IMG/VR virus record: IMGVR_UViG_3300028025_003852
Span: 1-64,000 of that record
Length of the DNA: 64,000 nucleotides
Source: a virus
Strand: one strand, 5' to 3'
Shown: positions 4,978 through 43,116 of the stretch, piece by piece
Layout of the letters: each line of letters begins with the position of its first letter
Position numbering within the stretch: position 1 is the stretch's first letter
The notes under the pieces: model-generated
The model's input: the letters and a program-made list of their open reading frames with translations, nothing else
Databases searched by the model: none
What the model was told of the DNA's origin: nothing
Translations under genes and position numbers: made by a program

Positions 4978-8562
<3,585 letters not shown>

Positions 8563-13138: not shown

Positions 13139-13164
13139 AGTAATTCTATTATACACCACTAATA

Positions 13165-13213
13165 GGACTGGCACCCGAAAATAGTGGGTATGAGAGACGT
13201 TCGAGTGCCAGCC
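13165..13213 (-). ncRNA. Candidate antisense hairpin sRNA (14-bp stem, 20-nt loop)
   Basis: TATAAT (13225-13220) 6 nt upstream; two G-U pairs that only work on the minus strand; loop complementary to the mRNA at 62969-62980. Confidence 0.6.
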
Positions 13214-13222
13214 ATAATTATT

Positions 13223-13318
13223 ATAACATATTGTAACAATTTGATAACAAAAAAATAAAAATCATTGATATATCAACACTGTTATATAATCGTTACAACA
13301 TTGTTATAGAAACGTTAC
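13223..13318. promoter_or_regulatory. Arrays of GTTAY/RTAAC half-sites at 10-11 bp period (MtrA/GlnR-like boxes)
   Basis: GTTAY at 13281, 13292, 13303, 13314; RTAAC at 13223, 13233, 13244. Confidence 0.5.
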
Positions 13319-13433
13319 CAAATACATGCTCGGGGTATGCTATGGTATATAAAGATAATAGATACTAAGAAAACTCTCTCTTAGAGATAGCTTCTCAATA
13401 AAAGAAAAACAATCCGAAGGATTAAGGATAAGT

Positions 13434-13751: not shown

Positions 13752-14032
13752 GATATATTAATTATATCCTGAGTTTTTAATAAAATTACTACATGTTGTA
13801 TGAAACATTCCCTGGATACACAATATACTTAATTAATCGCTCTTAAATCGCGGCGTAAAATTCGGCGGCGTATAGAGATACCAAACACATACCAAATACC
13901 ACTATCTAAATATGTGTGATATCCTGGATATAACCCAGTCAAGTGCTTTCGGAAACCAGCGTAGTTGGTTCTTTAAACCAGCACAAATTTTCTCCTTATG
14001 CAGATAGGGAGATTTTTTGTTATACTATATAT

Positions 14033-14242
14033 ATGGGAAAAGTTGGAGATGATGTAAGCATATGGGATTTGCTTGATCCTAATATGCCGAGAAGTACAAG
14101 AGAACTTATGGAATCAAGATTGGCTATTTGTTATGAATGCCCTTTCTTTTTAAAAGGATCAAAGCGATGCTCCAAATGTGGATGTTTTATGAAGCTTAAG
14201 GTTTCTCTTGAACAGGCTAAGTGTCCTATGCATAAATGGTAA
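14033..14242 (+). CDS. Cys-rich metal-binding protein (DUF6171-like)
   Basis: RLAICYECP...CSKCGCF...K...CPMHKW; ATG 6 nt after TATACT. Confidence 0.7.
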   Translation: MGKVGDDVSIWDLLDPNMPRSTRELMESRLAICYECPFFLKGSKRCSKCGCFMKLKVSLEQAKCPMHKW

Positions 14243-14302
14243 TATATCCCTTTCAGGAGCAACTGCGTTGCTAATACCTCCGAAATTTGATACAATAGAT
14301 CT

Positions 14303-14482
14303 ATGACATATTATTCAGAAATCATCAATAAAGAAATGCTTGAACAAAACTTTGTTACTCAAAGAAAGACATCAAGACAGATTGCTCGTGAGTTTCACAT
14401 CTCAAGAAGAATGGTTAATAAGTATCTTCTTGACTATGGATTTATTAATGTAAAAGATTTAGAAGATAATGATCTTCCCTAG
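14303..14482 (+). CDS. Small HTH protein
   Basis: Hand translation ...KTSRQIAREFHISRRMVNKYL...; ATG 6 nt after TACAAT. Confidence 0.65.
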   Translation: MTYYSEIINKEMLEQNFVTQRKTSRQIAREFHISRRMVNKYLLDYGFINVKDLEDNDLP

Positions 14483-14584: not shown

Positions 14585-14822
14585 TCCATACCCTGGACCT
14601 TCTGAAAAATTATTGTTTTTCGATTTGGACATTTTCTGAATATTTTGTATTTGTGAACGATACACACTTTACAGTAACAATTCAAGTAAATTAGTCCGCA
14701 CACTGGTATCCGCCCTGCCTCAAAAAATATTCTAATCTATTTTTAGACTTATCGGCGTGTCGCATTGTCATTGTCCGTGGTGCATGATAGGTTATAGATA
14801 ACAACAAAGAATGGATAACAAA

Positions 14823-14897
14823 ATGGAAACAGGTTGCTACTCAGAGTGTGAGTATGTGTGTGAGTGTGTGCAGTATAAGGTAGGTGCAAGCAAATGA
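14823..14897 (+). CDS. 24-aa Cys-rich peptide
   Basis: METGCYSECEYVCECV... first ORF after the 14772 promoter. Confidence 0.4.
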   Translation: METGCYSECEYVCECVQYKVGASK

Positions 14898-15031
14898 AGT
14901 GTGAAGTGTGTGACTACTTTGACGCTAATGAAGTCATGGTATACAAGACAGAGATACTTAACTTATCTATGGTAGTCATGTGTGACTATTGCTTTCACGA
15001 GATATTGGAGATGAAGAATGAAACGGTCTAA
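14894..15031 (+). CDS. Small zinc-finger-like early protein
   Basis: MKCEVC...MCDYC; ATGA coupling. Confidence 0.55.
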   Translation: MKCEVCDYFDANEVMVYKTEILNLSMVVMCDYCFHEILEMKNETV

Positions 15032-15149
15032 GGCGTACTATGTAACAAGGGGTATTGCTAGGGCATTGACTCTATTGGTCAAAGCATCTTTGGTTGTTGG
15101 TGTAGTGTATGTGTTTGTGTTGTTGTATTGGGGAGCATTCTATCCCTAA
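15018..15149 (+). CDS. Small membrane protein
   Basis: GGAG RBS; hydrophobic C-terminal half. Confidence 0.5.
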   Translation: MKRSKAYYVTRGIARALTLLVKASLVVGVVYVFVLLYWGAFYP

Positions 15150-15294
15150 CGGCGTGTCGCCTTGACATACCCCCAGATCCAGGGCCGGGCGGCCTGTGGA
15201 TAACTATGTTACCATTTCGTTATAAGAAACACCCTATATGGGCTTTACATTGTCCGTGGTCTGTGATAGTCTGAAGACATAAGATAAAGAAACA

Positions 15295-15352
15295 GAGAGA
15301 GTGAGCCTAGCAAATAAGGTCGCAAGACATGAGCCTAGCAAATAAATCTCTC
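15295..15352 (+). ncRNA. Two-fold symmetric 5'-leader RNA motif
   Basis: GAGAGA/TCTCTC outer stem, GTC-GCAA-GAC hairpin, identical 16-mers TGAGCCTAGCAAATAA on both sides. Confidence 0.5.
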
Positions 15353-15374
15353 AATAAAGAATAGGAAATAGAAA

Positions 15375-15569
15375 ATGACATTAGCAGAAACAGGAATCAA
15401 GCAAGACTTGACTATCGGTAACGTGGTTGCCATTAGCCGTAAAGGTGTAATTCGTGCAAGCGGAATCATCGAATCAGTAAAGCAAATTAACCAAGACCGC
15501 TTTGACGTAACTTTCACTAACGGAAAGACTGAGTCAATGGTATGGGGAAAGACGCTCACCGTAGTTTGA
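15375..15569 (+). CDS. Small early protein (SH3-like beta barrel?)
   Basis: ORF after promoter 15251; DLTIGNVV pattern. Confidence 0.6.
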   Translation: MTLAETGIKQDLTIGNVVAISRKGVIRASGIIESVKQINQDRFDVTFTNGKTESMVWGKTLTVV

Positions 15570-15616
15570 GTGTCAGACCCTCATGTTAGAATAAAAACAA
15601 CAAGAAAGGAAAACTA

Positions 15617-15760
15617 ATGTATATTGTAGAAGTAATCAAGAAGGGAGTCGGAGTCGTTGAGACTTTCGGCTCACGGTCTAAGGCAGAAGCAGAAGCACAA
15701 AAGAACGCTTATGCTCTCATGTATCCTGACCATGTAGTAATGATTGAATGGAGTAACTAA
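15617..15760 (+). CDS. 47-aa early protein
   Basis: Own promoter (15571) and GAAAGGA RBS. Confidence 0.65.
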   Translation: MYIVEVIKKGVGVVETFGSRSKAEAEAQKNAYALMYPDHVVMIEWSN

Positions 15761-15926
15761 CGGCGTGTCGGCTTGACATACCCTGGCAATCGGGGGCCGG
15801 GCGATCCGGCCGCCTGTGGATAACTATTTACGAGAATTATTCTACGAGGCGGAAAACTATGCCCTAAAAACTTTTCACTGTCCGTCGCCCATGTTAGAAT
15901 GAAGACGTAAAGAAAGGTAAACTAAA

Positions 15927-16106
15927 ATGGAAATCAAAGAAATCAGAAAGAACGGAATCGGAAACGGTTTCTCAGTAATCAACCCTCAAGATGGGTTCCG
16001 CAAGGATAACACCATCTGGAATGGCACTTGCTCAGAGTGTGGTGAACGAGTGTATAACTCAGTAATGACTAAGTATGAGTGGAAACACCAGACCAAGTGT
16101 GTTTGA
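15927..16106 (+). CDS. 59-aa early zinc-binding protein
   Basis: Own promoter and RBS; CSEC...H...C. Confidence 0.65.
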   Translation: MEIKEIRKNGIGNGFSVINPQDGFRKDNTIWNGTCSECGERVYNSVMTKYEWKHQTKCV

Positions 16107-16155
16107 CTGTCTGAGGCTACTGCTAAAATAAAGACATAAAGAAAGGATAACTAAA

Positions 16156-16278
16156 ATGAAAGAATGTTTCTTGTGTGATGAGGGCACTACTGCCACTACT
16201 GTATCACCATACAACTACCCCGTTTGTGCTAGCCACTACAGCGAAGACATCCGTGAATTCGCTACCGACTACTCATAG
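16156..16278 (+). CDS. 40-aa early zinc-binding peptide
   Basis: Own promoter and RBS; CFLC...CASH. Confidence 0.6.
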   Translation: MKECFLCDEGTTATTVSPYNYPVCASHYSEDIREFATDYS

Positions 16279-16309
16279 ACAATAACCAACAACGAAAGGT
16301 AAAACTAAA

Positions 16310-16471
16310 ATGACAAATCACGAACGTATCTCTGGAATCTTAGAGACAATTCGAATTGCAAAGGGTGCAGAGTCTCACTCTGACGTTATGCCCTATGTGA
16401 TAGGCATGATGACCGCCGTCCTCAACGACTCACAGCTTGAGGCTATGGAAGAGGTAGCCAAGCAATACTAA
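16310..16471 (+). CDS. 53-aa early protein
   Basis: ACAACGAAAGG RBS. Confidence 0.65.
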   Translation: MTNHERISGILETIRIAKGAESHSDVMPYVIGMMTAVLNDSQLEAMEEVAKQY

Positions 16472-16624
16472 CATATTCCAGAAATGGAATGTGGGGCCGG
16501 TTGATCCGGCCGCCCCTCTTCCTATTTACGAAGGCTATTAAAAACCCTGGACTTTTGACCGCTGGACTTTTCACTGTCCGACGTATCTGTTATTCTTGTA
16601 TTACAAACAACGAAAGGATAACTA

Positions 16625-16813
16625 ATGCGATTCGACCCTATTTTTGGTGAGGCTAACGAGATTGTTGGCTACCTCGACGACATGGGCAACGAGTGGACTG
16701 TCGAGCAGGTCGAGGACTACTGGGATGTCTCGGGCAACGAGCCTGACGGCATGTGGCTTGATGAGGACGCTCTCAACTCTATCGGCTGGGGTAGCGACGA
16801 GGCTTACTTCTAA
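16625..16813 (+). CDS. Highly acidic 62-aa early protein
   Basis: 17 D/E versus 1 R; ends DEDALNSIGWGSDEAYF. Confidence 0.75.
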   Translation: MRFDPIFGEANEIVGYLDDMGNEWTVEQVEDYWDVSGNEPDGMWLDEDALNSIGWGSDEAYF

Positions 16814-16927
16814 ACTACCCAAAGGGGGGCCGGGGGCCGTTATCAAATCGTTACATTGGATTACGTACATTACGTTTTCACTGTCAGTCGCTCGTGTTAT
16901 TCTTGTATTACAACGAAAGGAAAACTA

Positions 16928-17095
16928 ATGGACAAGCAAATACTGGTATCGGTTTGGGTGCTCAATCAGTGGGCAGAAAACGCTCGTGTTGAGCAGGAGT
17001 ACTGGATTGAGAACAACAACGACGGATTGGCAGGCTACTTCGGTGGTCGGGCTGCTGCCTATGAGTTTTTACTCGCTGAGTATGCCAAAGACTAG
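16928..17095 (+). CDS. 55-aa early protein
   Basis: Start MDKQIL after promoter and RBS. Confidence 0.65.
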   Translation: MDKQILVSVWVLNQWAENARVEQEYWIENNNDGLAGYFGGRAAAYEFLLAEYAKD

Positions 17096-17149
17096 TGTCA
17101 TAGGCTACTGCTAAACTAAAACTAACAACAACGAAAAGGACACAATAAA

Positions 17150-17335
17150 ATGATGACACGCAAAGACTATGTTTCAACTGCTAAGATTCTCAATGACCTT
17201 TGGCTTGATTTGCCAATCAGTAACATTGACCTGTTTGAGGATACCGTTATGGCTTTCTCTAAAATGTTTGCAGAAGATAACGAACGATTCGACCACAAGA
17301 TTTTTTATAACGCTTGTTTCAAGGAGGAATACTAA
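17150..17335 (+). CDS. Conserved small phage protein
   Basis: MMTRKDY...A.IL...F..DN.RFD...F..AC pattern. Confidence 0.75.
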   Translation: MMTRKDYVSTAKILNDLWLDLPISNIDLFEDTVMAFSKMFAEDNERFDHKIFYNACFKEEY

Positions 17336-17463
17336 TGAACCTGGTACCATTGTTTGCTGTAATGTTTGGGCTACTCGTAATCAATACCGTGATTATTTTG
17401 TACCTGTTGGCTAAATACAAAGAAGCCAAGCATGAGGCACAGATAAACCGACCACCCTTCTAG
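17335..17463 (+). CDS. 42-aa membrane protein ending PPF
   Basis: AAGGAGG RBS, TAATG coupling, hydrophobic N-terminus. Confidence 0.55.
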   Translation: MNLVPLFAVMFGLLVINTVIILYLLAKYKEAKHEAQINRPPF

Positions 17464-17551
17464 GAGGGCCGGACGATCTTCGTTATAAAGTTGTTACGAA
17501 GACCTTACGAAACGCCCTGGAAATGTCCGAGGTATCTGCTAAGATTAGTAT

Positions 17552-17719
17552 ATGAAGAAAAAGACCAAGCACAAAGCAACAGAAAACAAAGCCTACATCG
17601 AGGCTATGCGTGAGTTGCGTCGCTCCAATGCGGCTACTGCCCATGACAACCGACCTAACCGTCAACGCACTCGTGGTGCAGTCAAGGCTCATGCTATTGG
17701 AGAATACAAGGCTCTGTAA
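17552..17719 (+). CDS. Basic Arg-rich small actinophage protein
   Basis: ELRRSNAATAHDNRPNRQRTR...AI; leaderless after promoter 17524. Confidence 0.7.
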   Translation: MKKKTKHKATENKAYIEAMRELRRSNAATAHDNRPNRQRTRGAVKAHAIGEYKAL

Positions 17720-17785
17720 CTCAGTGGTTAGAGTGCCACCCTGTCACGGTGGAAGTCGCCAGTTCAAGTCTGGTCAGAGTCGCCA
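17710..17785 (+). tRNA. tRNA-Asp(GTC)
   Basis: Cloverleaf; anticodon arm CCACC-CTGTCAC-GGTGG; encoded CCA. Confidence 0.93.
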
Positions 17786-17786
17786 A

Positions 17787-17861
17787 TCCCCTTTAGCTCA
17801 ACGGCAGAGCAACGAGCTGTTAACTCGTAGGTTCTTGGTTCGAATCCAAGAGGGGGAGCCA
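17787..17861 (+). tRNA. tRNA-Asn(GTT)
   Basis: Anticodon arm ACGAG-CTGTTAA-CTCGT; TTCGAAT T-loop; encoded CCA. Confidence 0.95.
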
Positions 17862-17932
17862 GGATCCGGCCCCACCTTTTCACTGTCAGTCGTAGGTGTT
17901 ACGATAGTATTACAAACGAAAGGAAATTAGCC

Positions 17933-18112
17933 GTGGCTTATGTGTCTGAGTATGGTAACTATGGTGGTGAGGGAGTAATTGTATTCCCAGACTATCAACT
18001 TACCCCTGAACAATGGGATGAATTAGATATTCTTCCAGACAACGACAAGATGTCGTATGTTAAGCGTATTTTTGATGAAAACGAGTTTGGATATATGGAG
18101 TTTAACGACTGA
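17933..18112 (+). CDS. 59-aa acidic early protein
   Basis: GTG after promoter 17884 and GAAAGGA RBS. Confidence 0.6.
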   Translation: MAYVSEYGNYGGEGVIVFPDYQLTPEQWDELDILPDNDKMSYVKRIFDENEFGYMEFND

Positions 18113-18291
18113 TGAAACGTGAATCATACATTCCACCCAAGGGAATCTCAGAAAAAGAGTTCCTCACAATAGTTGCAAATGACCTAGTAGATATGCTAGT
18201 CTTAAAAGAGGTAGACTTTACCTATGTTCCAAGTGTTCGTGACTTCATTGTCAAGTATTCCAAATCCCGACACCGAAAGGGTAGAAAATGA
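18112..18291 (+). CDS. 59-aa hypothetical protein
   Basis: TGATG coupling. Confidence 0.55.
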   Translation: MKRESYIPPKGISEKEFLTIVANDLVDMLVLKEVDFTYVPSVRDFIVKYSKSRHRKGRK

Positions 18292-18431
18292 GAAGCAATC
18301 CATTCCCCGAAGATGAACAGGCTACCGAAATCATGGAAGCCCTAGACGACTACTATGCAAATCCTCAAGAGTATTCATTCCGTGACCTTGAGGAAATCTT
18401 CCAAGACCGTGACCCATTCGAGTTTCTCTAA
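18288..18431 (+). CDS. 47-aa acidic hypothetical protein
   Basis: ATGA coupling, GAAAGGG RBS. Confidence 0.55.
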   Translation: MRSNPFPEDEQATEIMEALDDYYANPQEYSFRDLEEIFQDRDPFEFL

Positions 18432-18440
18432 GGAGTAGTA

Positions 18441-18650
18441 ATGCCCAAGTATCGCATAAAGGCGACGGTAACGGTAGAGATGAACCTACCTGACGACTTC
18501 GACCCCAATAGGGATAACGAAGGAGACATTCTCTATTCCCTTGATGGATACATTCGTGAAGATGGTGTAGACGGTTGGAGACTGTGGAAGGCCGCATTGG
18601 CTGACAATGGTATGTGGCACAATGACGCAGACTATAAAATCGTAGAATGA
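18441..18650 (+). CDS. Hypothetical early protein
   Basis: AAGGAG RBS. Confidence 0.65.
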   Translation: MPKYRIKATVTVEMNLPDDFDPNRDNEGDILYSLDGYIREDGVDGWRLWKAALADNGMWHNDADYKIVE

Positions 18651-18790
18651 ACATACCCCTAATTGTTATAACAGGGTTTGTATGCTTTGTGGTTTTCTTT
18701 CCGCTAATTGCTTATATCTTTTATGCCGTCGAGGTTTTGAGTTATAAGTTTGGTAACAAGGTTGACGATACAGCAAATTTGGAGGACTAG
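18647..18790 (+). CDS. 47-aa membrane protein
   Basis: ATGA coupling; long hydrophobic stretch. Confidence 0.55.
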   Translation: MNIPLIVITGFVCFVVFFPLIAYIFYAVEVLSYKFGNKVDDTANLED

Positions 18791-18856
18791 GGGGGCCGGG
18801 CCGCTTTCACTGTCAGAGGTGCGTGTCATAATGGTATTACAACGAAAGGAAAAATT

Positions 18857-18979
18857 ATGCCGAATATGAAACTCATCCCCACTCGTGCAGGATATGTCTA
18901 TGAGTGTGTTGAGTGTGACTTTCAACTCACACCTGAGCAAGCAGACGAACACGAATGTATGACCGTCTTTAGTTTTTAG
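18857..18979 (+). CDS. 40-aa zinc-finger peptide
   Basis: YECVEC...HEC; own promoter and RBS. Confidence 0.6.
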   Translation: MPNMKLIPTRAGYVYECVECDFQLTPEQADEHECMTVFSF

Positions 18980-19024
18980 TGTCAGACGCTACTGTTAGAA
19001 TAAGAGAAACGAAAGGAAAACGCA

Positions 19025-19519
19025 ATGGGCTTGGATATGTATTTAGAGGTTCGCAAGTTTGTCGAAACCCACGATTGGGTAAACGAGAATGGCGAGTTTG
19101 TTCGTAAGGAAACTCCAGGAGCAGAGGCTATCAAGGTTGCAGGTCTTGAGAACCTTACTTCTAAAGAGGCTGTTGGCATTACTGTTCAGACTACCGCTGT
19201 CTACTGGCGTAAGGTCAACGCTATCCACAACTGGTTTGTAAATGTCTGTGCTAATGGTGTAGACGAGTGTCAGCAGATTCCTGTAAAGCGTGAGAACCTG
19301 CAAGCCTTGCGTGACCAAGTAGAATTGGTTGTTCGCAAAAAGAATCCAGCAGTTGCTCAAGAGTTTTTGCCAACCTCATCAGGTTTCTTCTTTGGCTCAA
19401 CTGAGTATGACGAGTGGTATTGGTCAGATATGCAATTCACTCTTGATGAACTCAACCGTGTGTTGTCTGAGACGGTAGACGACTATGGGATTGACTTCTT
19501 CTATCAGGCTTCTTGGTAA
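19025..19519 (+). CDS. Widespread conserved phage early protein
   Basis: MGLDMYL...YWRKVNAIHNWF...LPTSSGFFFGSTEYD...YQASW. Confidence 0.85.
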   Translation: MGLDMYLEVRKFVETHDWVNENGEFVRKETPGAEAIKVAGLENLTSKEAVGITVQTTAVYWRKVNAIHNWFVNVCANGVDECQQIPVKRENLQALRDQVELVVRKKNPAVAQEFLPTSSGFFFGSTEYDEWYWSDMQFTLDELNRVLSETVDDYGIDFFYQASW

Positions 19520-19524
19520 CAAGA

Positions 19525-19549
19525 CGAGGGGTGCGACTCGATAACGCAT
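19525..19549 (+). ncRNA. H-type pseudoknot, copy 1
   Basis: S1 CGAG/CTCG, 8-nt loop, S2 GTGCG/CGCAT. Confidence 0.45.
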
Positions 19550-19618
19550 AACCCTTCGGGGGCCGGGCCGCTTGATCTTGCAACTTTCACTGTCCGTGGC
19601 TACTGTTAGTATAAGTAT

Positions 19619-20341
19619 ATGACAAAGTTGATTCGCTCAAAAGACCGTAAAGTAACCAACGCTGTAACGCCTAACGGCAAGCAAGCCTCTATCGCTAACA
19701 CTTTTGGTTTGCCTTCTGGCACTGCCTTCTCATGTCCAGGTGCTACTAGCGTATGCGAGACTATCTGCTATGCTGGCAAGTTGGAAAAGGTATTCAAGGG
19801 TGTGCGTATCAACCTAGAGCACAACTGGGCATTGGTCAAAGACGCTGACTATCTTACTATCTACGACCTTCTCTATGAAATGATTAGCGATTTTGTTTCT
19901 GATTGCGAACGTCGTGGTGCAGAAAAGTTATTCCGCATTCACTGGGACGGTGACTTCTTTAATGAAGAATACACCTATGCATGGCGTGATGTGATTTGTG
20001 AGTTTGAGGATGTGCAATTCTGGGCATACACTCGTAGTGCTTTCGCTGTGCCTATCCTAATTGACATTCCTAACCTTGGCTTCTATTTCTCAACTGATAG
20101 TGCCAACAAGGATTTGGCTATCTCTCTCAAAGAGACTCACGGTATCAAGTTGGCATACCTTGCTCAGACGTTTGCTATTGGTAAGGCTGACATTCTTGAG
20201 ATTACTGGGCAGACTGCTATTCCATGCCCCGAAAATAACAAAAAGATTCCTATGATTAGCGAGAAGGGTAGTGCCTGTGTGACCTGTGGGCAATGTATCT
20301 TCCAACGCAATGATATCCTGTTTTCTGCTACAAAGAAGTAG
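19619..20341 (+). CDS. GP88-like protein with radical-SAM-like Cys motif
   Basis: CPGATSVCETICYA; FRIHWDGDF; FWAYTRS; C-terminal CP...CVTCGQC. Confidence 0.75.
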   Translation: MTKLIRSKDRKVTNAVTPNGKQASIANTFGLPSGTAFSCPGATSVCETICYAGKLEKVFKGVRINLEHNWALVKDADYLTIYDLLYEMISDFVSDCERRGAEKLFRIHWDGDFFNEEYTYAWRDVICEFEDVQFWAYTRSAFAVPILIDIPNLGFYFSTDSANKDLAISLKETHGIKLAYLAQTFAIGKADILEITGQTAIPCPENNKKIPMISEKGSACVTCGQCIFQRNDILFSATKK

Positions 20342-20423
20342 CGGAGGGCAGGGCCGGGTGATCCGGCCGCCCACCCCCAATGTAACAATTAGGTTACGAT
20401 AGGCTGAAAATAGCCCCTAGGAC

Positions 20424-20452
20424 TTGATATTGTGTGTGTTTTCTGTCATACT
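20424..20452 (+). promoter_or_regulatory. SigA-type promoter
   Basis: TTGATA-17-CATACT with extended TG; similar promoters at 22582-22610 and 23814-23843. Confidence 0.65.
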
Positions 20453-20516
20453 TGATATATCAGCAAGACCGCTGGTAATTAGGTTGGCTGGCTCGCCAAC
20501 AGAAATGAGGAAGCAA

Positions 20517-20663
20517 ATGGGTAACATCAACATTGGAGACACCTTCACCACGCAGAAGTCTGGCGTATCGGGAACGGTTCAGGAAATCATCAAGAACGCA
20601 AACGGTTCTACTCGTATTCGCCTGTCGGTGAACGGTGCAGACCGTTGGACTACGGTCAAGTAA
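20517..20663 (+). CDS. 48-aa SH3-like small protein
   Basis: Start MGNINIGD after GAGG RBS. Confidence 0.65.
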   Translation: MGNINIGDTFTTQKSGVSGTVQEIIKNANGSTRIRLSVNGADRWTTVK

Positions 20664-20680
20664 GGTCAGACCCTAGTCTG

Positions 20681-20708
20681 TCTGCTGGGCATCAGATAAA
20701 ACTGCCCA
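20681..20708 (+). ncRNA. H-type pseudoknot, copy 2
   Basis: S1 TCTG/CAGA, S2 TGGGCA/TGCCCA, TAAAAC linker. Confidence 0.6.
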
Positions 20709-20742
20709 CTCAAATCCAAAAGCCAAATGAAAGGAAAACATA

Positions 20743-21192
20743 ATGGCTCGTTCACTTGCTGTGAAGATTCCCACCGCTACACTTATTGCTGACATTGAGG
20801 CAAGCATCGCTGACATTGAGGCTAAGGTTGCTACATACCCTGCCGACATGGAAGCATACCGTAAGGCACAGAAGGCACACCAACAGACTGTTCTCAAGAC
20901 TGTTATTGAGGCTCTCAAGAACCCCGACAACATTGGCGAAGAGTATGGCTCAATCGTTCGTGTTCAGCAAAACCGTTATGGTAATGGTAATGTAGAGATT
21001 TCGGTAAACACGGAACTGCTCTCTGTCCCACAGCCTCCCGAGTGTCCCTCTAACCCAAATGCCAAAGAGTCGTTTGGTCGTGACTACACTAGCCGTCTTG
21101 AGTTGCTGAAGAAGAACCTGAAGGTTCTCAAGATGACAAACCAAGAGGAAGTCAACGCCTCCACCTACAACACGGTGATTGACCTCCTCTAG
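20743..21192 (+). CDS. Coiled-coil hypothetical protein
   Basis: GAAAGGA RBS; helical N-terminus. Confidence 0.8.
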   Translation: MARSLAVKIPTATLIADIEASIADIEAKVATYPADMEAYRKAQKAHQQTVLKTVIEALKNPDNIGEEYGSIVRVQQNRYGNGNVEISVNTELLSVPQPPECPSNPNAKESFGRDYTSRLELLKKNLKVLKMTNQEEVNASTYNTVIDLL

Positions 21193-21226
21193 ACTCCATA
21201 CGCCCCGAAAGGGATATGTGGAAAAT

Positions 21227-21254
21227 GACCTGAGCAGGTCTATGTAAACTGCTC
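21227..21254 (+). ncRNA. H-type pseudoknot, copy 3
   Basis: GAC-CTGAGCAG-GTC...TAAAC-TGCTC. Confidence 0.6.
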
Positions 21255-21413
21255 GCCCTCTCCCCTGTGAAGCGTCTGGATAGATTGCTGGTAAACAGGG
21301 GAGGGGAGCCGGGTAGATCAGATCCGGCCCCGAATATAACAAATTAGTTACGATGTTATAAAAAAATAGGCCTAAAACTTGATATTGTCAGAGGTATCTG
21401 CCATACTGGGAAT

Positions 21414-21629
21414 ATGGAAAAAGTAAAGGGAACGTATTTTGTTGTGACTGGTGAGTCTTACTATGTGAAGGCTGACTCTGAGGAAGAGGCTGAGGCTGTC
21501 TTCAATGTAGGTATGGGATATATGGATGAGCATAACTATCCTGACTTTGATACCGCCGATGCTTTCAGCCGTATCGAGTATACCGATACCTACACTACCT
21601 ATGAGCCTATCACTGATTTCAGTGTCTGA
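21414..21629 (+). CDS. Acidic DpnD/PcfM-like small protein
   Basis: YYVKADSEEEAE motif; leaderless. Confidence 0.6.
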   Translation: MEKVKGTYFVVTGESYYVKADSEEEAEAVFNVGMGYMDEHNYPDFDTADAFSRIEYTDTYTTYEPITDFSV

Positions 21630-21668
21630 GGCTACTGTTACACTAAAGATACAACGAAAGGGAAAAGA

Positions 21669-21926
21669 ATGATTGACAAAGCATTTGGTTTGCAGGAAGC
21701 GGCTCGTAAGTCTGCTTTCGCTCCGTCTGTAAAGTTGTCTGCTCTGATTATCCGTGATGGATACCAGAACATGACACAGCAAGAAATGGAAAAGGCTCTC
21801 ATAGAACTTGTGTCTGAGGCTGTTGTCGTTTCTTCCTACCACACTACGATGGTTCTTCTTGATGAGGAAGACCAGAACACACTCGCAACAACGATTGACG
21901 AACTACAAGAAATGGGGAACAACTAA
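21669..21926 (+). CDS. Hypothetical protein
   Basis: Own promoter and RBS. Confidence 0.7.
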   Translation: MIDKAFGLQEAARKSAFAPSVKLSALIIRDGYQNMTQQEMEKALIELVSEAVVVSSYHTTMVLLDEEDQNTLATTIDELQEMGNN

Positions 21927-22414
21927 TGTTGGACTATGAGAACATTGAAGTAAAAGATTTGCCACCGTCGCCTATCGAGCAGGGTACCCTTATCGGTATC
22001 GCTGTCGATACTAAGATTGAGGAACTTCAGAAAGAACTTGAGGGTGTCAAGGCAGAACTGGATGCCTCTCGTGCAAACGCTGATGACTGGCGTAACCGTC
22101 AGACATCTATGTATAACCAACTTGGTGAAATGCAGGACAGACTCAAGGGTATCCTGACTGAACTGGTCAACTCTGGTTCCATTGAAAAGGAATACGCAAA
22201 GACCATTGCAGACCACTGTGGCATTGAGGTTACTCGTTACATTGGTGTGTCTGGAAATATCACATTCTCTGCAAATGTCGAGGTATCGGTATTCGATGAA
22301 GATGACTTGGATACACACAACTTCAGTGCAACATACCTGTGCCTTGAGTATCAGGGTGAAGATGTCATTGACTTGAACTATGACATTGAGAACGTTGAAG
22401 AGGACTACAGTTAG
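21926..22414 (+). CDS. Acidic coiled-coil protein
   Basis: TAATG coupling. Confidence 0.75.
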   Translation: MLDYENIEVKDLPPSPIEQGTLIGIAVDTKIEELQKELEGVKAELDASRANADDWRNRQTSMYNQLGEMQDRLKGILTELVNSGSIEKEYAKTIADHCGIEVTRYIGVSGNITFSANVEVSVFDEDDLDTHNFSATYLCLEYQGEDVIDLNYDIENVEEDYS

Positions 22415-22428
22415 TAGGCCTAATAGCT

Positions 22429-22468
22429 AGGGTAGGGACTTGTTAATTCCTTTCTTAGCCTCTACCCT
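22429..22468 (+). ncRNA. Hairpin with anti-Shine-Dalgarno loop
   Basis: 12-bp stem (one mismatch); loop TGTTAATTCCTTTCTT. Confidence 0.4.
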
Positions 22469-22471
22469 CAC

Positions 22472-22499
22472 GGACCTGAGCATGTCCTTAAAAGGCTCA
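22472..22499 (+). ncRNA. H-type pseudoknot, copy 4
   Basis: S1 GGAC/GTCC, S2 TGAGC/GCTCA. Confidence 0.6.
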
Positions 22500-22646
22500 T
22501 TCTCATACCCAGGGGGGCCGGGCCGATCCGGCCGCCATTGTAACAATTGGGTTACGAACACCTAAAAATACCACCTAGGACTTGTAATTATCTTGTATCT
22601 GTGTCATACTGATATAAGTAAACAAACCTCTAACGAAAGGCAACAT

Positions 22647-23666
22647 ATGCACGAATTGGAACAGGGCAAGAACGGCGAGGTTGCTTTTGCATCTTTCCGT
22701 GAGCCTGCTTGGCATGGTCTTGGGACTGTGTTCGAGGAAGAAGTAAAGACGGCAGATATGCTGAAGTTGGCACACCTTGATAATTGGAATGTTCGTCTTG
22801 AGGAGATTCCTATTCCCGAGGGATTTGTCTCTGACAAGACTAACTATTTTGTTGCTCGCACTAACCCCTTCAACTCTGAGCAGAACGACATTCTTGGAAT
22901 CGTTGGGCAACGCTACAATACGCTTCAGAACGAATCACTGTTTGAGTTTGGTGACAACCTGCTAGACGGTGGTGGTCGTTGGGAGACGGCTGGCTCTATC
23001 AAGGGTGGTCGTGTTGTGTTCGGTGCTTTGGCACTTGAGCGTGAAACGGTGCTTGACCCTAATGGTGTGGCTGACAAGGTAAACACTTACCTTCTTGTCA
23101 ACACATCGCACGATGGGTCGGTGTCCATTATGGCGAGCATCACGCCTGTGCGTGTCGTGTGTGCGAACACTCTGAACATGGCTATCGGTTCAGGCACAGG
23201 TCACTGGCGTAGTGCTAAGCAGTCGTTCAAGATTCGTCACACTCAGACAGCCGAGGGTCGTGTTCAGGCTGCTCGTGAGGCTTTGGGTCTTGCCAATGAC
23301 TACATGGATGAGTTTGACAAGATGGCTCAGGCTATGATTGAGACAGAAATCACGAATGACCAATTCCAGGAGATTCTTCGTGCAGTCTACCCCATGCCCG
23401 AAAAGGATGCTAAGGGTGCTATGTCAAAGTGGCAGACAAAGTTGGAACTCATCGAGGACATCTACGGTGGACAGTTCAACGACACGATTGCTGGAACGGC
23501 TTGGGGTGCATTGAACGGCATCACCGAACGTCTTGACTGGTATCGTGCAGGACGCAAGGGCAACAGCGAAAGCGTGTTGGCTTCTGCTTCTGGCTTCGAC
23601 CCTGCTATCAACGCTGAGAAGAATCGTATTCTCAAGATTGTTCAGGAACTCACAATGGCTTCCTAG
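22647..23666 (+). CDS. DUF932 phage/plasmid-like protein
   Basis: AWHGLG, ETAGSIKGGRVVF, NTSHDGS, TPVRVVCANTL, GTAWGALN; start MHELEQ after GAAAGG. Confidence 0.9.
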   Translation: MHELEQGKNGEVAFASFREPAWHGLGTVFEEEVKTADMLKLAHLDNWNVRLEEIPIPEGFVSDKTNYFVARTNPFNSEQNDILGIVGQRYNTLQNESLFEFGDNLLDGGGRWETAGSIKGGRVVFGALALERETVLDPNGVADKVNTYLLVNTSHDGSVSIMASITPVRVVCANTLNMAIGSGTGHWRSAKQSFKIRHTQTAEGRVQAAREALGLANDYMDEFDKMAQAMIETEITNDQFQEILRAVYPMPEKDAKGAMSKWQTKLELIEDIYGGQFNDTIAGTAWGALNGITERLDWYRAGRKGNSESVLASASGFDPAINAEKNRILKIVQELTMAS

Positions 23667-23676
23667 TCGGTGACTC

Positions 23677-23704
23677 CCTGCCCTCCCTTGTGGAGGGTGG
23701 GGGG
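23677..23704 (+). terminator. GC-rich hairpin, putative U-less terminator
   Basis: CCCTGCCCTCC-CTTGT-GGAGGGTGGGG directly after the DUF932 stop. Confidence 0.55.
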
Positions 23705-23849
23705 CCGGGTGATCAGATCCGGACTCTACTTAGTATATACATTCATTATATTTGTATTACGATGAAGTAAAAAATACGCCAGATTACGAATAGGTAACAA
23801 TCACCCTGAAAAGTTGCATGTCAACCATGTTTTCTGTCATACTGAATAT

Positions 23850-23951
23850 ATGAATGAATTTGAGATAGCGATGCAAGTTGTATTGTCAGAGGCTCTTGAT
23901 AAACTAGAGTCTATACCAGATGAAGAAATCGAAAGGTTGTATATATCCTAA
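23850..23951 (+). CDS. 33-aa leaderless peptide
   Basis: ATG 6 nt after CATACT; TAATG coupling to the next ORF. Confidence 0.45.
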   Translation: MNEFEIAMQVVLSEALDKLESIPDEEIERLYIS

Positions 23952-24127
23952 TGGGAATTTACTATGTTAAGACTGTTGTAGAGTTTGGTGGAGAAGTTAT
24001 GGCTGATACCGCCGAGGAAGCAGAGAAACTTGGATGGCACTGGGATACTGAATTGCAGTATGACGGAGTCTACTCAATCGATGTAGAAGTTGTTGACGAG
24101 GATAACGATGAGGAGGACACCGAATGA
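23951..24127 (+). CDS. Acidic DpnD/PcfM-like small protein
   Basis: YYVK...EVMADTAEEAE. Confidence 0.6.
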   Translation: MGIYYVKTVVEFGGEVMADTAEEAEKLGWHWDTELQYDGVYSIDVEVVDEDNDEEDTE

Positions 24128-24243
24128 TGAAGGTATCGGAAGTGGAGCGTCTTATCGGTAATGCGTTCCCCAACATGCATGTGTTTGTAGATAAGAACAA
24201 CGAGATTATTGTTTGCACAGGAGAGGAAGCAATCGATGAGTAA
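24127..24243 (+). CDS. 38-aa hypothetical protein
   Basis: GAGGAGG RBS; coupled. Confidence 0.45.
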   Translation: MKVSEVERLIGNAFPNMHVFVDKNNEIIVCTGEEAIDE

Positions 24244-24397
24244 GTATTCAATTAAGGTAGAACAAATTGGACATACCGTTGTAGAGGTTGAGGCTGAAGA
24301 TGAGTTTCAGGCTGAAGACATTGCAATGGAGATGTGGGGCAATGGTGAACTTGACCATCTCTTTATCTTTGATGTAGAACTAATTGTGGATAACTAA
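24236..24397 (+). CDS. Acidic DpnD/PcfM-like small protein
   Basis: KYSIKV...VEVEAEDEFQA. Confidence 0.6.
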   Translation: MSKYSIKVEQIGHTVVEVEAEDEFQAEDIAMEMWGNGELDHLFIFDVELIVDN

Positions 24398-24630
24398 TGC
24401 GTATGCCAAAGGTAGCCGACCAAACTTGGAGGCGAATCTACCATTCCAGGGTAGCAGAGGTATACGAATCAGATAACGAGAACGACTACTACAAGGTAGT
24501 ACTAGAAGGTATGCGACCAAAGTATTTCTATGGTGAGTTAGGCTTTCAGAATTACCAACGCTATGTGTATGACTTTGAGATGGCTACCCTGTATTCACAG
24601 GACAACGCCATGATGAAGAAGTATCGGTAG
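24397..24630 (+). CDS. Hypothetical protein
   Basis: TAATG coupling. Confidence 0.7.
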   Translation: MRMPKVADQTWRRIYHSRVAEVYESDNENDYYKVVLEGMRPKYFYGELGFQNYQRYVYDFEMATLYSQDNAMMKKYR

Positions 24631-24647
24631 GCGTGGTAAAATAGAAT

Positions 24648-24881
24648 ATGACACCAACTATTTATACTAAGCCTAACTGTGTACAGTGTGATGCAACCAA
24701 ACGTTACTTTGATAACAAAGGTGTGGCCTACACTACCGTCGATATTACACAGGATGCGGACGCACTCGATCTACTTATTGCCGAGGGATTCAAGTCAGCT
24801 CCTGTTGTTAATATAGATACACACTGGTGGAGTGGATTCCAACCAGACTTAATAGATAAACACATCGCTAACTATTCTTAG
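24648..24881 (+). CDS. nrdH: Glutaredoxin-like NrdH
   Basis: IYTKPNCVQC...APVV...WSGFQPD. Confidence 0.93.
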   Translation: MTPTIYTKPNCVQCDATKRYFDNKGVAYTTVDITQDADALDLLIAEGFKSAPVVNIDTHWWSGFQPDLIDKHIANYS

Positions 24882-24909
24882 TGTCCGACGCTAATGGTAA
24901 GGTGGTAAC

Positions 24910-25296
24910 ATGACAGCAACTATAGACCTTTCCTATGAGGAATGGATTGACAAGTACAAGCCAGAGTTAGATGCCGACGGTAGCCCACGAATGTATGAGA
25001 CCTATGGCAAAGACTACGAGTATGTTCAGAGTGTAGACACTGAGTATCTTTGGACATGGACCGATGGTGGTGACTACAGTGTTATCACTAATGGATTTAG
25101 TTTTGTTAATCGCTTAGGCTACTACGTTTGTACCGTGCCATGTAGCACAGACATTTCTGTTGAGGTAGATGTGTATGTGCCAACAGAGTGTGAAGAAACC
25201 AAGATTCATTATTGGACAGAGCATGAGCGTTATGACGGAACCATGACAACCATTTGCTCAGAATGCGAGGTAGACAAAAATGACATTGACAGCTGA
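24910..25296 (+). CDS. Hypothetical phage protein
   Basis: YETYG...WT...G.SFVNRLGY pattern; leaderless after promoter 24882. Confidence 0.75.
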   Translation: MTATIDLSYEEWIDKYKPELDADGSPRMYETYGKDYEYVQSVDTEYLWTWTDGGDYSVITNGFSFVNRLGYYVCTVPCSTDISVEVDVYVPTECEETKIHYWTEHERYDGTMTTICSECEVDKNDIDS

Positions 25297-25669
25297 GGAG
25301 GAAGCCTTGCTTGCTAATCTAAACTATGACCTTAACATTTGGGACGAGGGTATGCACATGACCTGTCACCTACCAAAAGAAGAGCAGTACTCACAATGGA
25401 AGATTTCAGTACACAACGTACATGAACTACCAGATGGTTACATTCAGTGTGGTGATTGGATTGAGGATATCAATATCTATCTTACCGAAGATGAGGTGAA
25501 GGCCCTCACACTTGGATGGGCACCTGAGCTTGGTGGAGACTACACTGGTGACAGTGATTTCTTCCTTGACATCGATGGATTCTTTACTATCTATAAAGAC
25601 ATTCCCGAGAGGGTAAAGCAAGAACTACTATCACTACCGCCGATTGACATTCAGAAGGTTGAATGGTAG
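25280..25669 (+). CDS. Acidic hypothetical protein
   Basis: GAGG RBS. Confidence 0.7.
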   Translation: MTLTAEEEALLANLNYDLNIWDEGMHMTCHLPKEEQYSQWKISVHNVHELPDGYIQCGDWIEDINIYLTEDEVKALTLGWAPELGGDYTGDSDFFLDIDGFFTIYKDIPERVKQELLSLPPIDIQKVEW

Positions 25670-39274: not shown

Positions 39275-39535
39275 TTAATCAATTGCCTTTCTGGTAATTT
39301 GTACAACAGCACCATTATCTTCTAGTGCATGTTTTACTTTGAATAGGTATCTTACTGCTTCGATCTTGCCATCGTAGTCCAGTCGCATAAACGCCTGCTC
39401 GTCAGCAATAATCTCTAAGAACAATAATACACCATTATCACTGTGTTCCGCAATAGCTACCCCAAAATTTTTTGGAGGATGAATTGAGTGAACCGCCCTA
39501 CGCATTTCATTTGTGTAAAAACTAATCTCAGTCAT
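39275..39535 (-). CDS. Hypothetical protein
   Basis: Coupled ORF. Confidence 0.7.
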   Translation of the reverse strand: MTEISFYTNEMRRAVHSIHPPKNFGVAIAEHSDNGVLLFLEIIADEQAFMRLDYDGKIEAVRYLFKVKHALEDNGAVVQITRKAID

Positions 39536-39812
39536 TTGTCAGATTCCTCCACGTTTCTGCCCAATCCTGTTTCGATCTATGAGAGTTAAACTCTTTTGAT
39601 ATTTTTCCATTTTCTAGGTATACCCCACCCCAGACACCCCACTCTTTATTTGAGACACCTGTGGCAAAACACATTCTGCGTACTGGGCATTCTGAACAAA
39701 CCTTATCTACTGCAAGTCTAAAACTTTCATTCTCTTCATACTTATCAAAGAATATGTTAGTGTCATAGCCTAGGCATTTAGCGTTGTCTCTCCAAGTGTG
39801 GTCACTTTGCAT
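39528..39812 (-). CDS. whiB: WhiB-family transcription factor
   Basis: W...AKC...FF...CSECPVRRMC...GVWGG. Confidence 0.92.
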   Translation of the reverse strand: MQSDHTWRDNAKCLGYDTNIFFDKYEENESFRLAVDKVCSECPVRRMCFATGVSNKEWGVWGGVYLENGKISKEFNSHRSKQDWAETWRNLTND

Positions 39813-42935: not shown

Positions 42936-43116
42936 TGTCTTTTTCCTTTTGTCTTTCAAATATAACTATTTTTCCTGGGGCAACGTCATCATAAAGATGT
43001 CTCCATTGCGATATGTCCCAGCGTTGTTTTGTTGCATAATTTGCAGCCATAGCATAGTCATTGCAATAGATAATGTATCTTGCTCTTGTATCTTCACCGT
43101 GATATGTTTTAGCCAT
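42922..43116 (-). CDS. Hypothetical protein
   Basis: Coupled ORF. Confidence 0.55.

What the first reader, a model, noticed from the sequence alone, without database searches (positions are those of the whole stretch)
14772..24903. Early region driven by 17 promoters mimicking the host PafBC (RecA-NDp) DNA-damage promoter
Seen: 17 plus-strand copies of TGTC(A8/C7/T2)G-N10-(T/C)ANNNT with invariant spacing and an extended -10 TG (one copy is TGTCAT). Many also have TTTTCA/TTGATA/TTTACA/TTGTCA 17 bp from the -10. Established: mycobacterial PafBC, a WYL activator switched on by single-stranded nucleic acid, uses TGTCRG-N10-TANNNT as a -26 element. No WYL or sigma gene lies in this window. Inference: the phage wires host-takeover and anti-defence genes to the host LexA-independent damage sensor, so nuclease attack or infection stress amplifies them. 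Position 5 is never G, so a host-variant PafBC or a phage-encoded factor elsewhere in the genome is possible.
Basis: partly seen in the sequence, partly recalled or inferred. Interest (0 to 1): 0.88.

Follow-up and report, generated by a model that had tools for sequence, protein, structure and literature searches.

The report
Phage early promoters copying host PafBC sites
An uncultured freshwater phage of actinobacteria drives its early genes from 17 promoters built like the promoters that its hosts' DNA-damage activator PafBC switches on, which suggests, without proving it, that the phage borrows the host's damage alarm to start its own programme.

Summary
Seventeen same-strand copies of TGTC[A/C/T][G/T]-N7-TG-N-[T/C]ANNNT lie at 14772-24903. 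Four are followed by an ATG exactly 6 nt after the -10, so those mRNAs are leaderless and the sites are real promoters.

The record is a 72.8-kb fragment of a ~110-kb phage. It encodes WhiB, so the host is an actinobacterium. At least 597 IMG/VR stretches encode a relative. In 80 fetched loci the motif occurs 843 times on the gene strand and 66 on the other, only with the 10-nt spacer, while the small genes behind it are mostly not shared.

Sequence and geometry equal the published PafBC element, tGTCgg(N10)tA(N3)T at -28 to -23. The same element, flanking bases included, sits upstream of recA in 28 of 30 genomes of one actinobacterial family and 28 of 28 of one low-GC genus; WYL matches, in many of them two about 1 kb apart, were found in 40 of 41 genomes of the family. 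Neither this phage nor five complete relatives encode a WYL, sigma, MotA or AsiA protein.

This phage's sites also carry an extended -10 and a weak -35, so they may fire without PafBC. The use is not reported in the papers searched.

The parts
14772..14793 (+). promoter 1: -26 element TGTCCG, N10, -10 TAGGTT, extended -10 TG; -35-like TTGTCA 17 bp upstream of the -10
15251..15272 (+). promoter 2 (TGTCCG ... TAGTCT)
15571..15592 (+). promoter 3 (TGTCAG ... TAGAAT); the leader with GAAAGG Shine-Dalgarno precedes the ATG at 15617
15879..15900 (+). promoter 4 (TGTCCG ... TAGAAT)
16108..16129 (+). promoter 5 (TGTCTG ... TAAAAT)
16575..16596 (+). promoter 6 (TGTCCG ... TATTCT)
16882..16903 (+). promoter 7 (TGTCAG ... 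TATTCT)
17096..17117 (+). promoter 8, the TGTCAT variant (... TAAACT)
17524..17545 (+). promoter 9 (TGTCCG ... TAAGAT). Leaderless: the ATG at 17552 lies 6 nt after the -10. A 55-aa ORF follows, then tRNA-Asp 17710-17785 and tRNA-Asn 17787-17861
17884..17905 (+). promoter 10 (TGTCAG ... TACGAT)
18811..18832 (+). promoter 11 (TGTCAG ... CATAAT)
18980..19001 (+). promoter 12 (TGTCAG ... TAGAAT)
19591..19612 (+). promoter 13 (TGTCCG ... TAGTAT), leaderless for the GP88-family gene
19619..20341 (+). GP88-family early gene (PF17338, E 1.5e-51). Found in 80 of 80 related loci. Homologue of gene 88 of mycobacteriophage D29, the second gene from that genome's right end
21386..21407 (+). promoter 14 (TGTCAG ... 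CATACT), leaderless: ATG at 21414
21623..21644 (+). promoter 15 (TGTCTG ... TACACT)
22647..23666 (+). DUF932 gene (PF06067, E 2.4e-49), found in 63 of 80 related loci
23884..23905 (+). promoter 16 (TGTCAG ... TAAACT)
24882..24903 (+). promoter 17 (TGTCCG ... TAAGGT), leaderless: ATG at 24910
39528..39812 (-). WhiB-like gene (PF02467, E 3e-14); marks an actinobacterial host

Best explanation
The 17 sites are the early promoters of a lytic-type phage of about 110 kb that infects an actinobacterium, probably a low-GC freshwater one. Each promoter has a canonical SigA -10 (TANNNT) with an extended -10 TG. Exactly 10 nt upstream of the -10 lies a 9-10 bp element, TGTC-N-G-W-S-G-Y. [quoted passage not shown]

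Proposed mechanism, inferred and not shown: the host's constitutively present PafB/PafC heterodimer is activated by single-stranded DNA. It reads the GTC triplet at -28 to -23 and bridges to sigma-A region 4 ('sigma adaptation'), recruiting host RNA polymerase to all early cassettes at once. The phage encodes no WYL protein or sigma factor, so it depends on the host factor.

In this phage the added TG and a weak -35 (TTTTCA-like) probably give a basal, PafBC-independent level. PafBC would then amplify expression when ssDNA appears, for example from entering DNA ends, nuclease attack or the start of replication.

The promoter, and in this phage also a shared leader with a GAAAGG ribosome-binding site, acts as a portable cassette in front of small genes that differ between relatives.
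For: They are promoters. In 4 of 17 sites here the ATG starts exactly 6 nt after the -10. In the family 63 of 670 unique sites have ATG or GTG at that offset, against 0-9 at offsets 4, 5, 7, 8 and 9. A is 77% at the predicted +1.

The host is an actinobacterium. WhiB is present here and in 5 of 5 complete relatives; at E <= 0.001 it hit only Corynebacterium among 14 control genomes. The best DNA polymerase matches, at about 55% identity, are Streptomyces phages. The GP88 gene is shared with Mycobacterium and Streptomyces phages.

The motif equals the PafBC element. The published form is tGTCgg(N10)tA(N3)T, with the 5' part at -23 to -28, GTC strictly conserved and no -35 (passages of PMC8635444). 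In 80 related loci a spacer of 10 gives 768 sites, against 17-135 for spacers 5-16. No -35 consensus appears family-wide.

Host promoters of the same build. The motif lies upstream of recA in 12 of 23 WYL-positive and 0 of 7 WYL-negative sampled Actinomycetota. It is there in 28 of 30 genomes of the family of MAG G006 and 28 of 28 of its genus. WYL is found in 40 of 41 genomes of that family. G006's tandem pair matches PafB and PafC of solved structures 6sj9 and 7p5x.

The flanks agree too. The host family reads A-N-TGTC-R-G-W-G-G-Y; the phage reads A(17/17)-N-TGTC-M-G-W(17/17)-S(17/17)-G(16/17)-Y(17/17). Host-derived weight matrices built from unconstrained positions only score phage promoter sites about 8-9 bits above other TGTCNG in the same phage DNA. 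With the genus matrix, 318 of 653 promoter sites score above 0, against 78 of 1518 controls.

No phage factor was found. WYL is absent in 0 of 6 records, sigma region 2 in 0 of 6, and MotCF and AsiA in 0 of 6.

It is a separate promoter class. Other promoters of this genome look like TGnTATAAT or TTGACA-17-TAGAAT and have no TGTC element.

It is not a general host promoter feature. Five host-type genomes show no genome-wide excess over the reversed-pattern control.
Against: The host is not identified. All matches to cellular assemblies were phage contigs binned into MAGs with five unrelated labels. The phage WhiB has no close cellular relative in 401 genomes.

WYL was not found in 46 of 301 sampled Actinomycetota, many of them 1.3-1.8 Mb. 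Of the small genomes without WYL whose recA upstream sequence I printed, G015 (1.3 Mb, locus GC 0.46) and G029 (1.6 Mb, 0.49) show only a LexA-box promoter at recA. If the host is of that kind, PafBC cannot be the factor.

Two low-GC genomes that do have a WYL pair (G184, G246) also lack the motif at recA.

This phage's sites have an extended -10 TG (17 of 17) and a partial -35. Neither is part of the published PafBC consensus, and the TG is absent from the 28 host recA sites. These features could make the promoters self-sufficient.

A promoter that needs ssDNA-activated PafBC is an odd choice for the very first genes of an infection.

The closest cultured relatives do not carry the motif. Streptomyces Stanwilliamsviridae have 0-4 sites per ~130 kb, equal to the control, and the D29 early arm has none.

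No binding, transcription or expression data exist; no RNA run holds the sequence.
Confidence: 0.5

Rival explanations
1. A phage-encoded, non-WYL DNA-binding protein recognises TGTC-N-G-W-S-G. It would be either an activator made from the flanking ordinary promoters or, more likely, a shut-off repressor whose operator sits in the spacer of every early promoter. The likeness to the PafBC element would then be convergent or incidental.
For: An asymmetric site between -35 and -10 is a classical operator position (general knowledge, recalled). Two genes directly upstream of the array are leaderless and sit behind ordinary TGnTAnnnT promoters. One of them (14303-14482, 59 aa) gives weak, sub-threshold HTH hits: HTH_11 at E 0.016 and Sigma70_r4_2 at E 0.022. 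Most early proteins have no known family, so a regulator could hide among them.
Against: The 59-aa HTH-like ORF has no homologue in 0 of 80 related loci, although all of them carry the motif. The conserved 149-aa core protein (pLDDT 83) has no DNA-binding or any other fold match. A phage factor does not explain why core, spacing and flanking bases all equal those of host recA promoters. The strict 10-nt spacing, 768 sites against at most 135 for any other spacer, points to a factor that docks on RNA polymerase rather than a free-standing operator.
Confidence: 0.25
2. These are strong host SigA promoters that need no accessory factor. The extended -10 TG plus the -10, and here a weak -35, suffice. 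The TGTC block would be a spacer sequence kept because whole promoter cassettes were copied.
For: TG is present in 17 of 17 sites here and 387 of 670 in the family. The -35-like hexamers match TTGACA at a mean of 3.3 of 6 positions. Spacers and leaders are shared between some cassettes, which suggests duplication.
Against: The element is invariant in position over 650-700 unique sites from 80 loci whose cargo genes are mostly unrelated, while the rest of the spacer and the -35 region drift. About 40% of family sites lack TG and there is no family-wide -35, so those sites would be poor unaided promoters. Other promoters of the same genome lack the element.
Confidence: 0.2
3. The sites bind host PafBC mainly as a sink. 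They would titrate the activator away from the host's repair genes, rather than (or as well as) driving phage genes.
For: There are 17-27 sites per genome, multiplied by replication. PafBC joins only RNAP already bound at a cognate promoter (passage of PMC11804915).
Against: Every site is a complete promoter in front of a gene, with a fixed start point, so transcription is clearly selected for. No test was possible.
Confidence: 0.05

Closest known systems
PafBC-dependent ('RecA-NDp', -26 element) promoters of mycobacteria and other actinobacteria; sigma adaptation (PMC8635444, PMC11804915; passages read)
   Same: TGTC-R-G at -28 to -23, exactly 10 nt before TANNNT; GTC invariant; no -35 consensus across the phage family. 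The flanking W-G/S-G-Y matches the recA promoters extracted here.
   Different: The sites are on a phage, in arrays of about 10-27 (17 here, 18 with the degenerate copy). In this phage position 5 is A, C or T. An extended -10 TG is added (17 of 17 here, 58% in the family) and in this phage a weak -35. PafBC dependence is untested.
Phage T4 middle promoters (MotA box at -30 plus -10; MotA/AsiA sigma appropriation). Recalled; also named as a comparison in PMC8635444.
   Same: An upstream box replaces the -35 at a fixed distance from a normal -10, and the factor bridges DNA and sigma region 4.
   Different: T4 brings its own MotA and AsiA. No MotCF or AsiA match was found in 6 of 6 records (those searches had no positive control). 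Here the presumed factor is the host's.
Host-takeover module of Bacillus phage SPO1: many small early genes, each with a strong promoter and ribosome-binding site (recalled, not checked in a paper)
   Same: A dense array of short cassettes, each with a strong promoter, a strong Shine-Dalgarno and a small gene of unknown function.
   Different: As recalled, SPO1 early promoters are plain sigma-A promoters with no factor-specific box.
Early right arm of cluster A mycobacteriophages (D29/L5 genes 89-88...)
   Same: The GP88-family gene is shared (about 53% identity) and lies near the start of the early leftward operon.
   Different: No TGTC-N10-TANNNT site lies on the gene strand there. As recalled, those phages use a repressor-controlled SigA promoter.

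Membership tests
PafBC-dependent (-26 element) promoter class | tGTCgg-like element with invariant GTC at -28 to -23 | tested here: met
   GTC in 17 of 17 sites. The position is fixed by the leaderless ATG, which sets +1. The definition is from passages of PMC8635444.
PafBC-dependent (-26 element) promoter class | exactly 10 nt between the element and a SigA -10 (tA(N3)T) | tested here: met
   17 of 17 sites here (two have CA in place of TA). In the family, spacer 10 gives 768 sites against 17-135 for spacers 5-16.
PafBC-dependent (-26 element) promoter class | no -35 consensus | tested here: inconclusive
   Family-wide there is none; only an A/T-rich tract abuts TGTC. This phage has a TTTTCA-like hexamer at 17 bp, with a mean of 3.3 of 6 matches to TTGACA.
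PafBC-dependent (-26 element) promoter class | the same element at the host's own damage genes (recA P1) | tested here: inconclusive
   The host is unknown. In candidate lineages it is present: 28 of 30 (family of G006) and 28 of 28 (its genus). In the wider phylum sample it is 12 of 23 WYL-positive and 0 of 7 WYL-negative genomes.
PafBC-dependent (-26 element) promoter class | the host encodes the PafB/PafC pair | not testable with these tools
   The host is unidentified. WYL is found in 255 of 301 sampled Actinomycetota and 40 of 41 genomes of the family of G006. G006's pair matches PafB and PafC structures.
PafBC-dependent (-26 element) promoter class | transcription requires PafBC activated by ssDNA | not testable with these tools
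   Needs in vitro transcription or a pafBC deletion. No RNA data were available.
Extended -10 SigA promoter | TGn immediately upstream of TANNNT | tested here: met
   17 of 17 sites.
T4-type sigma appropriation (MotA/AsiA) | phage-encoded MotA and AsiA | tested here: not met
   PF09158 and PF09010 gave 0 of 6 records each. These searches had no positive control, so the result is weak.
Phage-encoded sigma factor promoters | a sigma-70-family gene in the phage | tested here: not met
   PF04542 gave 0 of 1 (this record) and 0 of 5 complete relatives.

The most novel reading that the evidence does not exclude
A large, widespread family of freshwater actinophages (at least 597 IMG/VR stretches encode the marker gene) has placed its whole early programme under the host's ssDNA-sensing WYL activator PafBC. 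Each phage carries about 10-27 copies of the host's recA-type -26 element in front of interchangeable small-gene cassettes. The cell's LexA-independent damage alarm, set off by incoming DNA ends, nuclease attack or replication, would then become the phage's start signal. The array might at the same time draw PafBC away from the host's repair genes. The variants of the element (ACC, TGG, GGTGG forms) would track the PafBC specificity of different host lineages and could serve as a host marker for uncultured actinophages.
Probability: 0.4. Interest if true: 0.85.

Novelty: new variant of a known kind. Interest (0 to 1): 0.72.

Why it matters
PafBC and sigma adaptation are known only as a cellular DNA-damage response. 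A phage that uses the same promoter class for its early genes would be the first case of a virus borrowing a WYL-type, ssDNA-sensing activator.

It would join two active fields, WYL regulators in damage and defence and phage takeover of transcription, in a group of abundant freshwater bacteria that is hard to grow.

It is directly testable with the published mycobacterial in vitro system.

The conserved cassette (promoter, and in this phage a shared leader and ribosome-binding site) also marks out hundreds of variable early genes. These are candidates for host-takeover or counter-defence functions. The motif flavour may help assign hosts to uncultured actinophages.

Tried and rejected
Near-identical DNA in cultured phages: none.

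Host assignment failed by every route tried. The phage RecA-like protein against genome contigs returned only phage contigs binned into MAGs with five unrelated labels. The phage WhiB had no cellular match at E <= 1e-14 in 401 Actinomycetota, apart from the binned phage contig. The ESM Atlas search with ThyX gave mixed taxa. The genome search does not draw 'relatives' for a virus, and it showed no taxon names for any genome.

Genome-wide excess of the motif in five host-type genomes: none over the control. This is uninformative for a small regulon.

Sequencing runs: no RNA holder is listed. The DNA holders are subsurface, freshwater, aquatic and lake metagenomes. I did not lay reads, because contigs cannot show transcript starts.

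Intrinsic terminators between cassettes: not enriched, 11 found against 10.7 expected.

Phage factor candidates. The 59-aa HTH-like ORF is not conserved. The 149-aa core protein has no fold match (best E 0.66). GP88 and DUF932 have no solved relatives. No 'no support' result is used as evidence.

Pfam failed on a wrong frame and was not repeated, so ORFs 34138-38403 and 41919-46748 remain unannotated.

Literature. Searches were 'PafBC'+'RecA-NDp' (3 papers), 'RecA-NDp' (9), 'PafBC'+'bacteriophage' (27 papers, 15 listings seen), and PafBC with mycobacteriophage, actinophage or prophage (top 20 listings, none holding PafBC). No title or abstract seen reports phage promoters of this class.

Unpublished genomes. 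The tallies 255 of 301 and 60 of 61 include genomes flagged as unpublished: G011, G028, G058, G092, G098, G130, G157, G183, G233, G245, G270. None of the recA loci analysed (L092-L126, L130-L165, L167-L193) comes from them.

Full report
OBSERVATION

The pattern TGTCNG-N10-YANNNT occurs 20 times in the window, against 5.05 +/- 2.19 in shuffles. Sixteen matches lie on the + strand between 14772 and 24903. The TGTCAT copy at 17096 makes 17, and all 17 carry an extended -10 TG. The strict pattern has only two other matches in the whole 72.8-kb record, both on the other strand.

- A two bases before TGTC, 17 of 17.
- W at position 7, 17 of 17.
- S at position 8, 17 of 17.
- G at position 9, 16 of 17.
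- Y at position 10, 17 of 17.

Most sites are followed by a shared A-rich leader with a GAAAGG Shine-Dalgarno. In four sites (17524, 19591, 21386, 24882) an ATG that opens an ORF starts exactly 6 nt after the -10. That is the signature of leaderless mRNAs. It fixes +1 and places TGTCNG at -28 to -23 and the -10 at -12 to -7.

A degenerate eighteenth copy, with TGTGTG in place of TGTCNG, lies at 20431-20452.

WHAT THE DNA IS

The window is the first 64 kb of a 72.8-kb IMG/VR virus record estimated to be 67% complete. It encodes:
- a collagen-like tail fibre, a DnaE-type polymerase, a ribonucleotide reductase and a DnaB-like helicase;
- a primase, a RecA-like recombinase and ThyX;
- five tRNAs;
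- a WhiB-like protein at 39528-39812 on the - strand.

The polymerase is about 55% identical to those of Streptomyces phages of the Stanwilliamsviridae. WhiB, the leaderless starts, the TANNNT -10 and the GAAAGG ribosome-binding site together indicate an actinobacterial host. GC is 37-48% per 2-kb window.

The 240-aa gene behind promoter 13 belongs to Pfam GP88. Its cultured homologues are in Mycobacterium and Streptomyces phages. In D29 it is the second gene from the right end, which I recall as the start of the early leftward operon. This supports calling the region early.

A FAMILY-WIDE FEATURE

At least 597 IMG/VR stretches encode a GP88 relative; 80 loci were fetched, with 63-95% identity and GC 36-52%.
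- In these 1.32 Mb the motif occurs 843 times on the gene strand and 66 on the other.
- Only the 10-nt spacer is enriched: 768 sites, against 17-135 for spacers 5-16.
- Five complete relatives of 107-117 kb each have a one-strand cluster of sites within roughly 5-15 kb.
- Over 709 unique sites the logo is www-TGTC-A(68%)-G-W-S-S-c-N3-t-g-N-TA-n-a-a/c-T. A is 77% at the predicted +1, and there is no -35 consensus.
- 63 of 670 unique sites have ATG or GTG exactly 6 nt after the -10, against 0-9 at neighbouring offsets.

The genes behind the promoters are mostly not shared. Most small ORFs of this phage are found in 0-13 of the 80 loci. The more widely shared genes are GP88 (80 of 80), a 48-aa ORF (75), a 149-aa ORF (69), DUF932 (63), a 61-aa ORF (61) and a DUF6171 ORF (54).

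Position 5 is G in 13% of family sites, and TGTCGG is the commonest form among the sites of relative G003.

COMPARISON WITH PafBC PROMOTERS

Passages of PMC8635444 give the in vivo PafBC motif as tGTCgg(N10)tA(N3)T. The 5' part lies at -23 to -28, GTC is strictly conserved in actinobacterial recA promoters, no -35 is present, and PafBC sits between the DNA and sigma-A region 4. Passages of PMC11804915 show that ssDNA bound to the WYL domains activates PafBC, and that PafBC joins only RNAP already bound at a cognate promoter.

I then extracted recA upstream regions from unnamed GTDB genomes.
- In a phylum-wide sample of Actinomycetota, the motif lies within about 200 nt of recA in 12 of 23 WYL-positive and 0 of 7 WYL-negative genomes. 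The WYL-negative genomes whose upstream sequence I printed (G015, G029, G060) show LexA-box promoters instead.
- MAG G006 has the record title 'uncultured Aquiluna sp.' and was reached only because a phage contig was binned into it. It has a tandem pair that matches PafB and PafC of 6sj9 and 7p5x.
- In its GTDB family, 28 of 30 recA loci carry rA-TGTC-R-G-W-G-G-Y ... TANNNT, and 40 of 41 genomes have WYL, in many of them as two matches about 1 kb apart.
- In its genus (locus GC 0.51-0.57, genomes 0.7-1.9 Mb), 28 of 28 recA loci carry AAA-(A/T)GTC-N-N-A-S-S ... TAGCTT, 69-85 nt upstream.

The A-rich tract, the variable position 5 and the W-S-S block are the features of the phage logo. The commonest phage 9-mers are TGTCAGACC (165), TGTCAGTGG (72) and TGTCGGTGG (60); their forms recur at host recA.

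Weight matrices built from host sites, using only positions that my search pattern left free, score phage promoter sites 8-9 bits above other TGTCNG occurrences in the same phage DNA. The means are -1.5 against -9.4 and -10.5 with the family matrix, and -1.2 against -10.6 with the genus matrix. With the genus matrix 49% of promoter sites score above 0, against 5% of controls.

The element is not a general host promoter feature: five host-type genomes show no genome-wide excess.

NO PHAGE FACTOR FOUND

WYL, sigma-70 region 2, MotCF and AsiA are not found in this record or in five complete relatives. The MotCF and AsiA searches had no positive control.

A 59-aa ORF with weak HTH hits lies just upstream of the array, behind an ordinary TGATACAAT promoter. 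It has no homologue in any of the 80 loci. The conserved 149-aa early protein folds confidently (pLDDT 83) but matches no solved fold.

Other promoters in the genome are TGnTATAAT-like or TTGACA-17-TAGAAT and lack the element. The TGTC class is therefore a distinct regulatory class.

WHAT SPEAKS AGAINST THE PafBC READING

- The host is unknown.
- WYL was not found in 46 of 301 sampled Actinomycetota, many of them small genomes.
- Two low-GC genomes with a WYL pair lack the motif at recA.
- This phage adds an extended -10 TG and a partial -35. The published consensus does not include them, and the TG is absent from the 28 host recA sites.
- Cultured relatives lack the motif: three Stanwilliamsviridae genomes have 0-4 sites, equal to the control, and the D29 early arm has none.
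- Nothing shows binding or induction, and no RNA run was available.

VERDICT

The sites are real early promoters of an actinophage (about 0.95). I put the chance that they are PafBC-type promoters served by the host's PafBC, or a close host paralogue, at about 0.5. The rivals are a phage-encoded regulator (0.25), factor-independent SigA promoters (0.2) and a pure PafBC sink (0.05).

In this phage the most likely working mode is dual. Basal firing would come through the TG and the weak -35. PafBC would amplify it when ssDNA appears.

The searches listed under Tried and rejected found no report of phage promoters of this class. I rate it a new variant of a known kind, with interest 0.72.

Noticed in passing
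window 20431-20452 (+): A degenerate eighteenth cassette: TTGATA, then TGTGTG in place of TGTCNG, N10, CATACT with TG. It is a close copy of promoter 14 and lies upstream of a 48-aa ORF (20517-20663) that is conserved in 75 of 80 related loci. It is a natural GTC-to-GTG variant that could serve as a built-in control.
   Followed up: partly
window 14018-14035 and 14288-14305 (+): Two leaderless genes directly upstream of the array sit behind ordinary extended -10 promoters (TGTTATACT and TGATACAAT, each 6 nt before the ATG). One is a DUF6171 protein found in 54 of 80 loci. The other is a 59-aa protein with weak HTH hits found in no relative.
   Followed up: partly
window 14772-25300 compared with loci L004-L083: The promoter is conserved across the family, but the small genes behind it are mostly unique or shared with fewer than 14 of 80 relatives. 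The array looks like a swap-site for accessory early genes.
   Followed up: partly
window 17552-17861 (+): One TGTC promoter (17524) drives a leaderless 55-aa ORF and then tRNA-Asp and tRNA-Asn. The ORF's end overlaps the first tRNA by 10 nt.
   Followed up: no
window 12822-13433: A 612-nt region without a long ORF lies between the tail-fibre operon and the early region. It is AT-rich and has repeated GTAACG / TATAACA-like words; it could be an origin or a packaging site.
   Followed up: no
loci L085-L091 (genome contigs): Contigs of this phage family are binned into MAGs labelled Methylococcus, Beijerinckiaceae, Bifidobacterium, Aquiluna and Lishizhenia. These are mis-binned viral contigs in public MAGs.
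   Followed up: partly
recA loci L123, L121, L115, L116, L106, L097: In the printed recA upstream regions of genomes lacking the -26 element, recA sits behind a TTGACA-type promoter overlapped by a TCGAAC-N4-GTTCG LexA box. G006 has both a LexA box and the -26 element, the two-promoter layout recalled from mycobacteria.
   Followed up: partly
window 4978-8562 (-): A 1194-aa tail fibre protein with many collagen-like repeat matches (PHROG tail fibre families).
   Followed up: no
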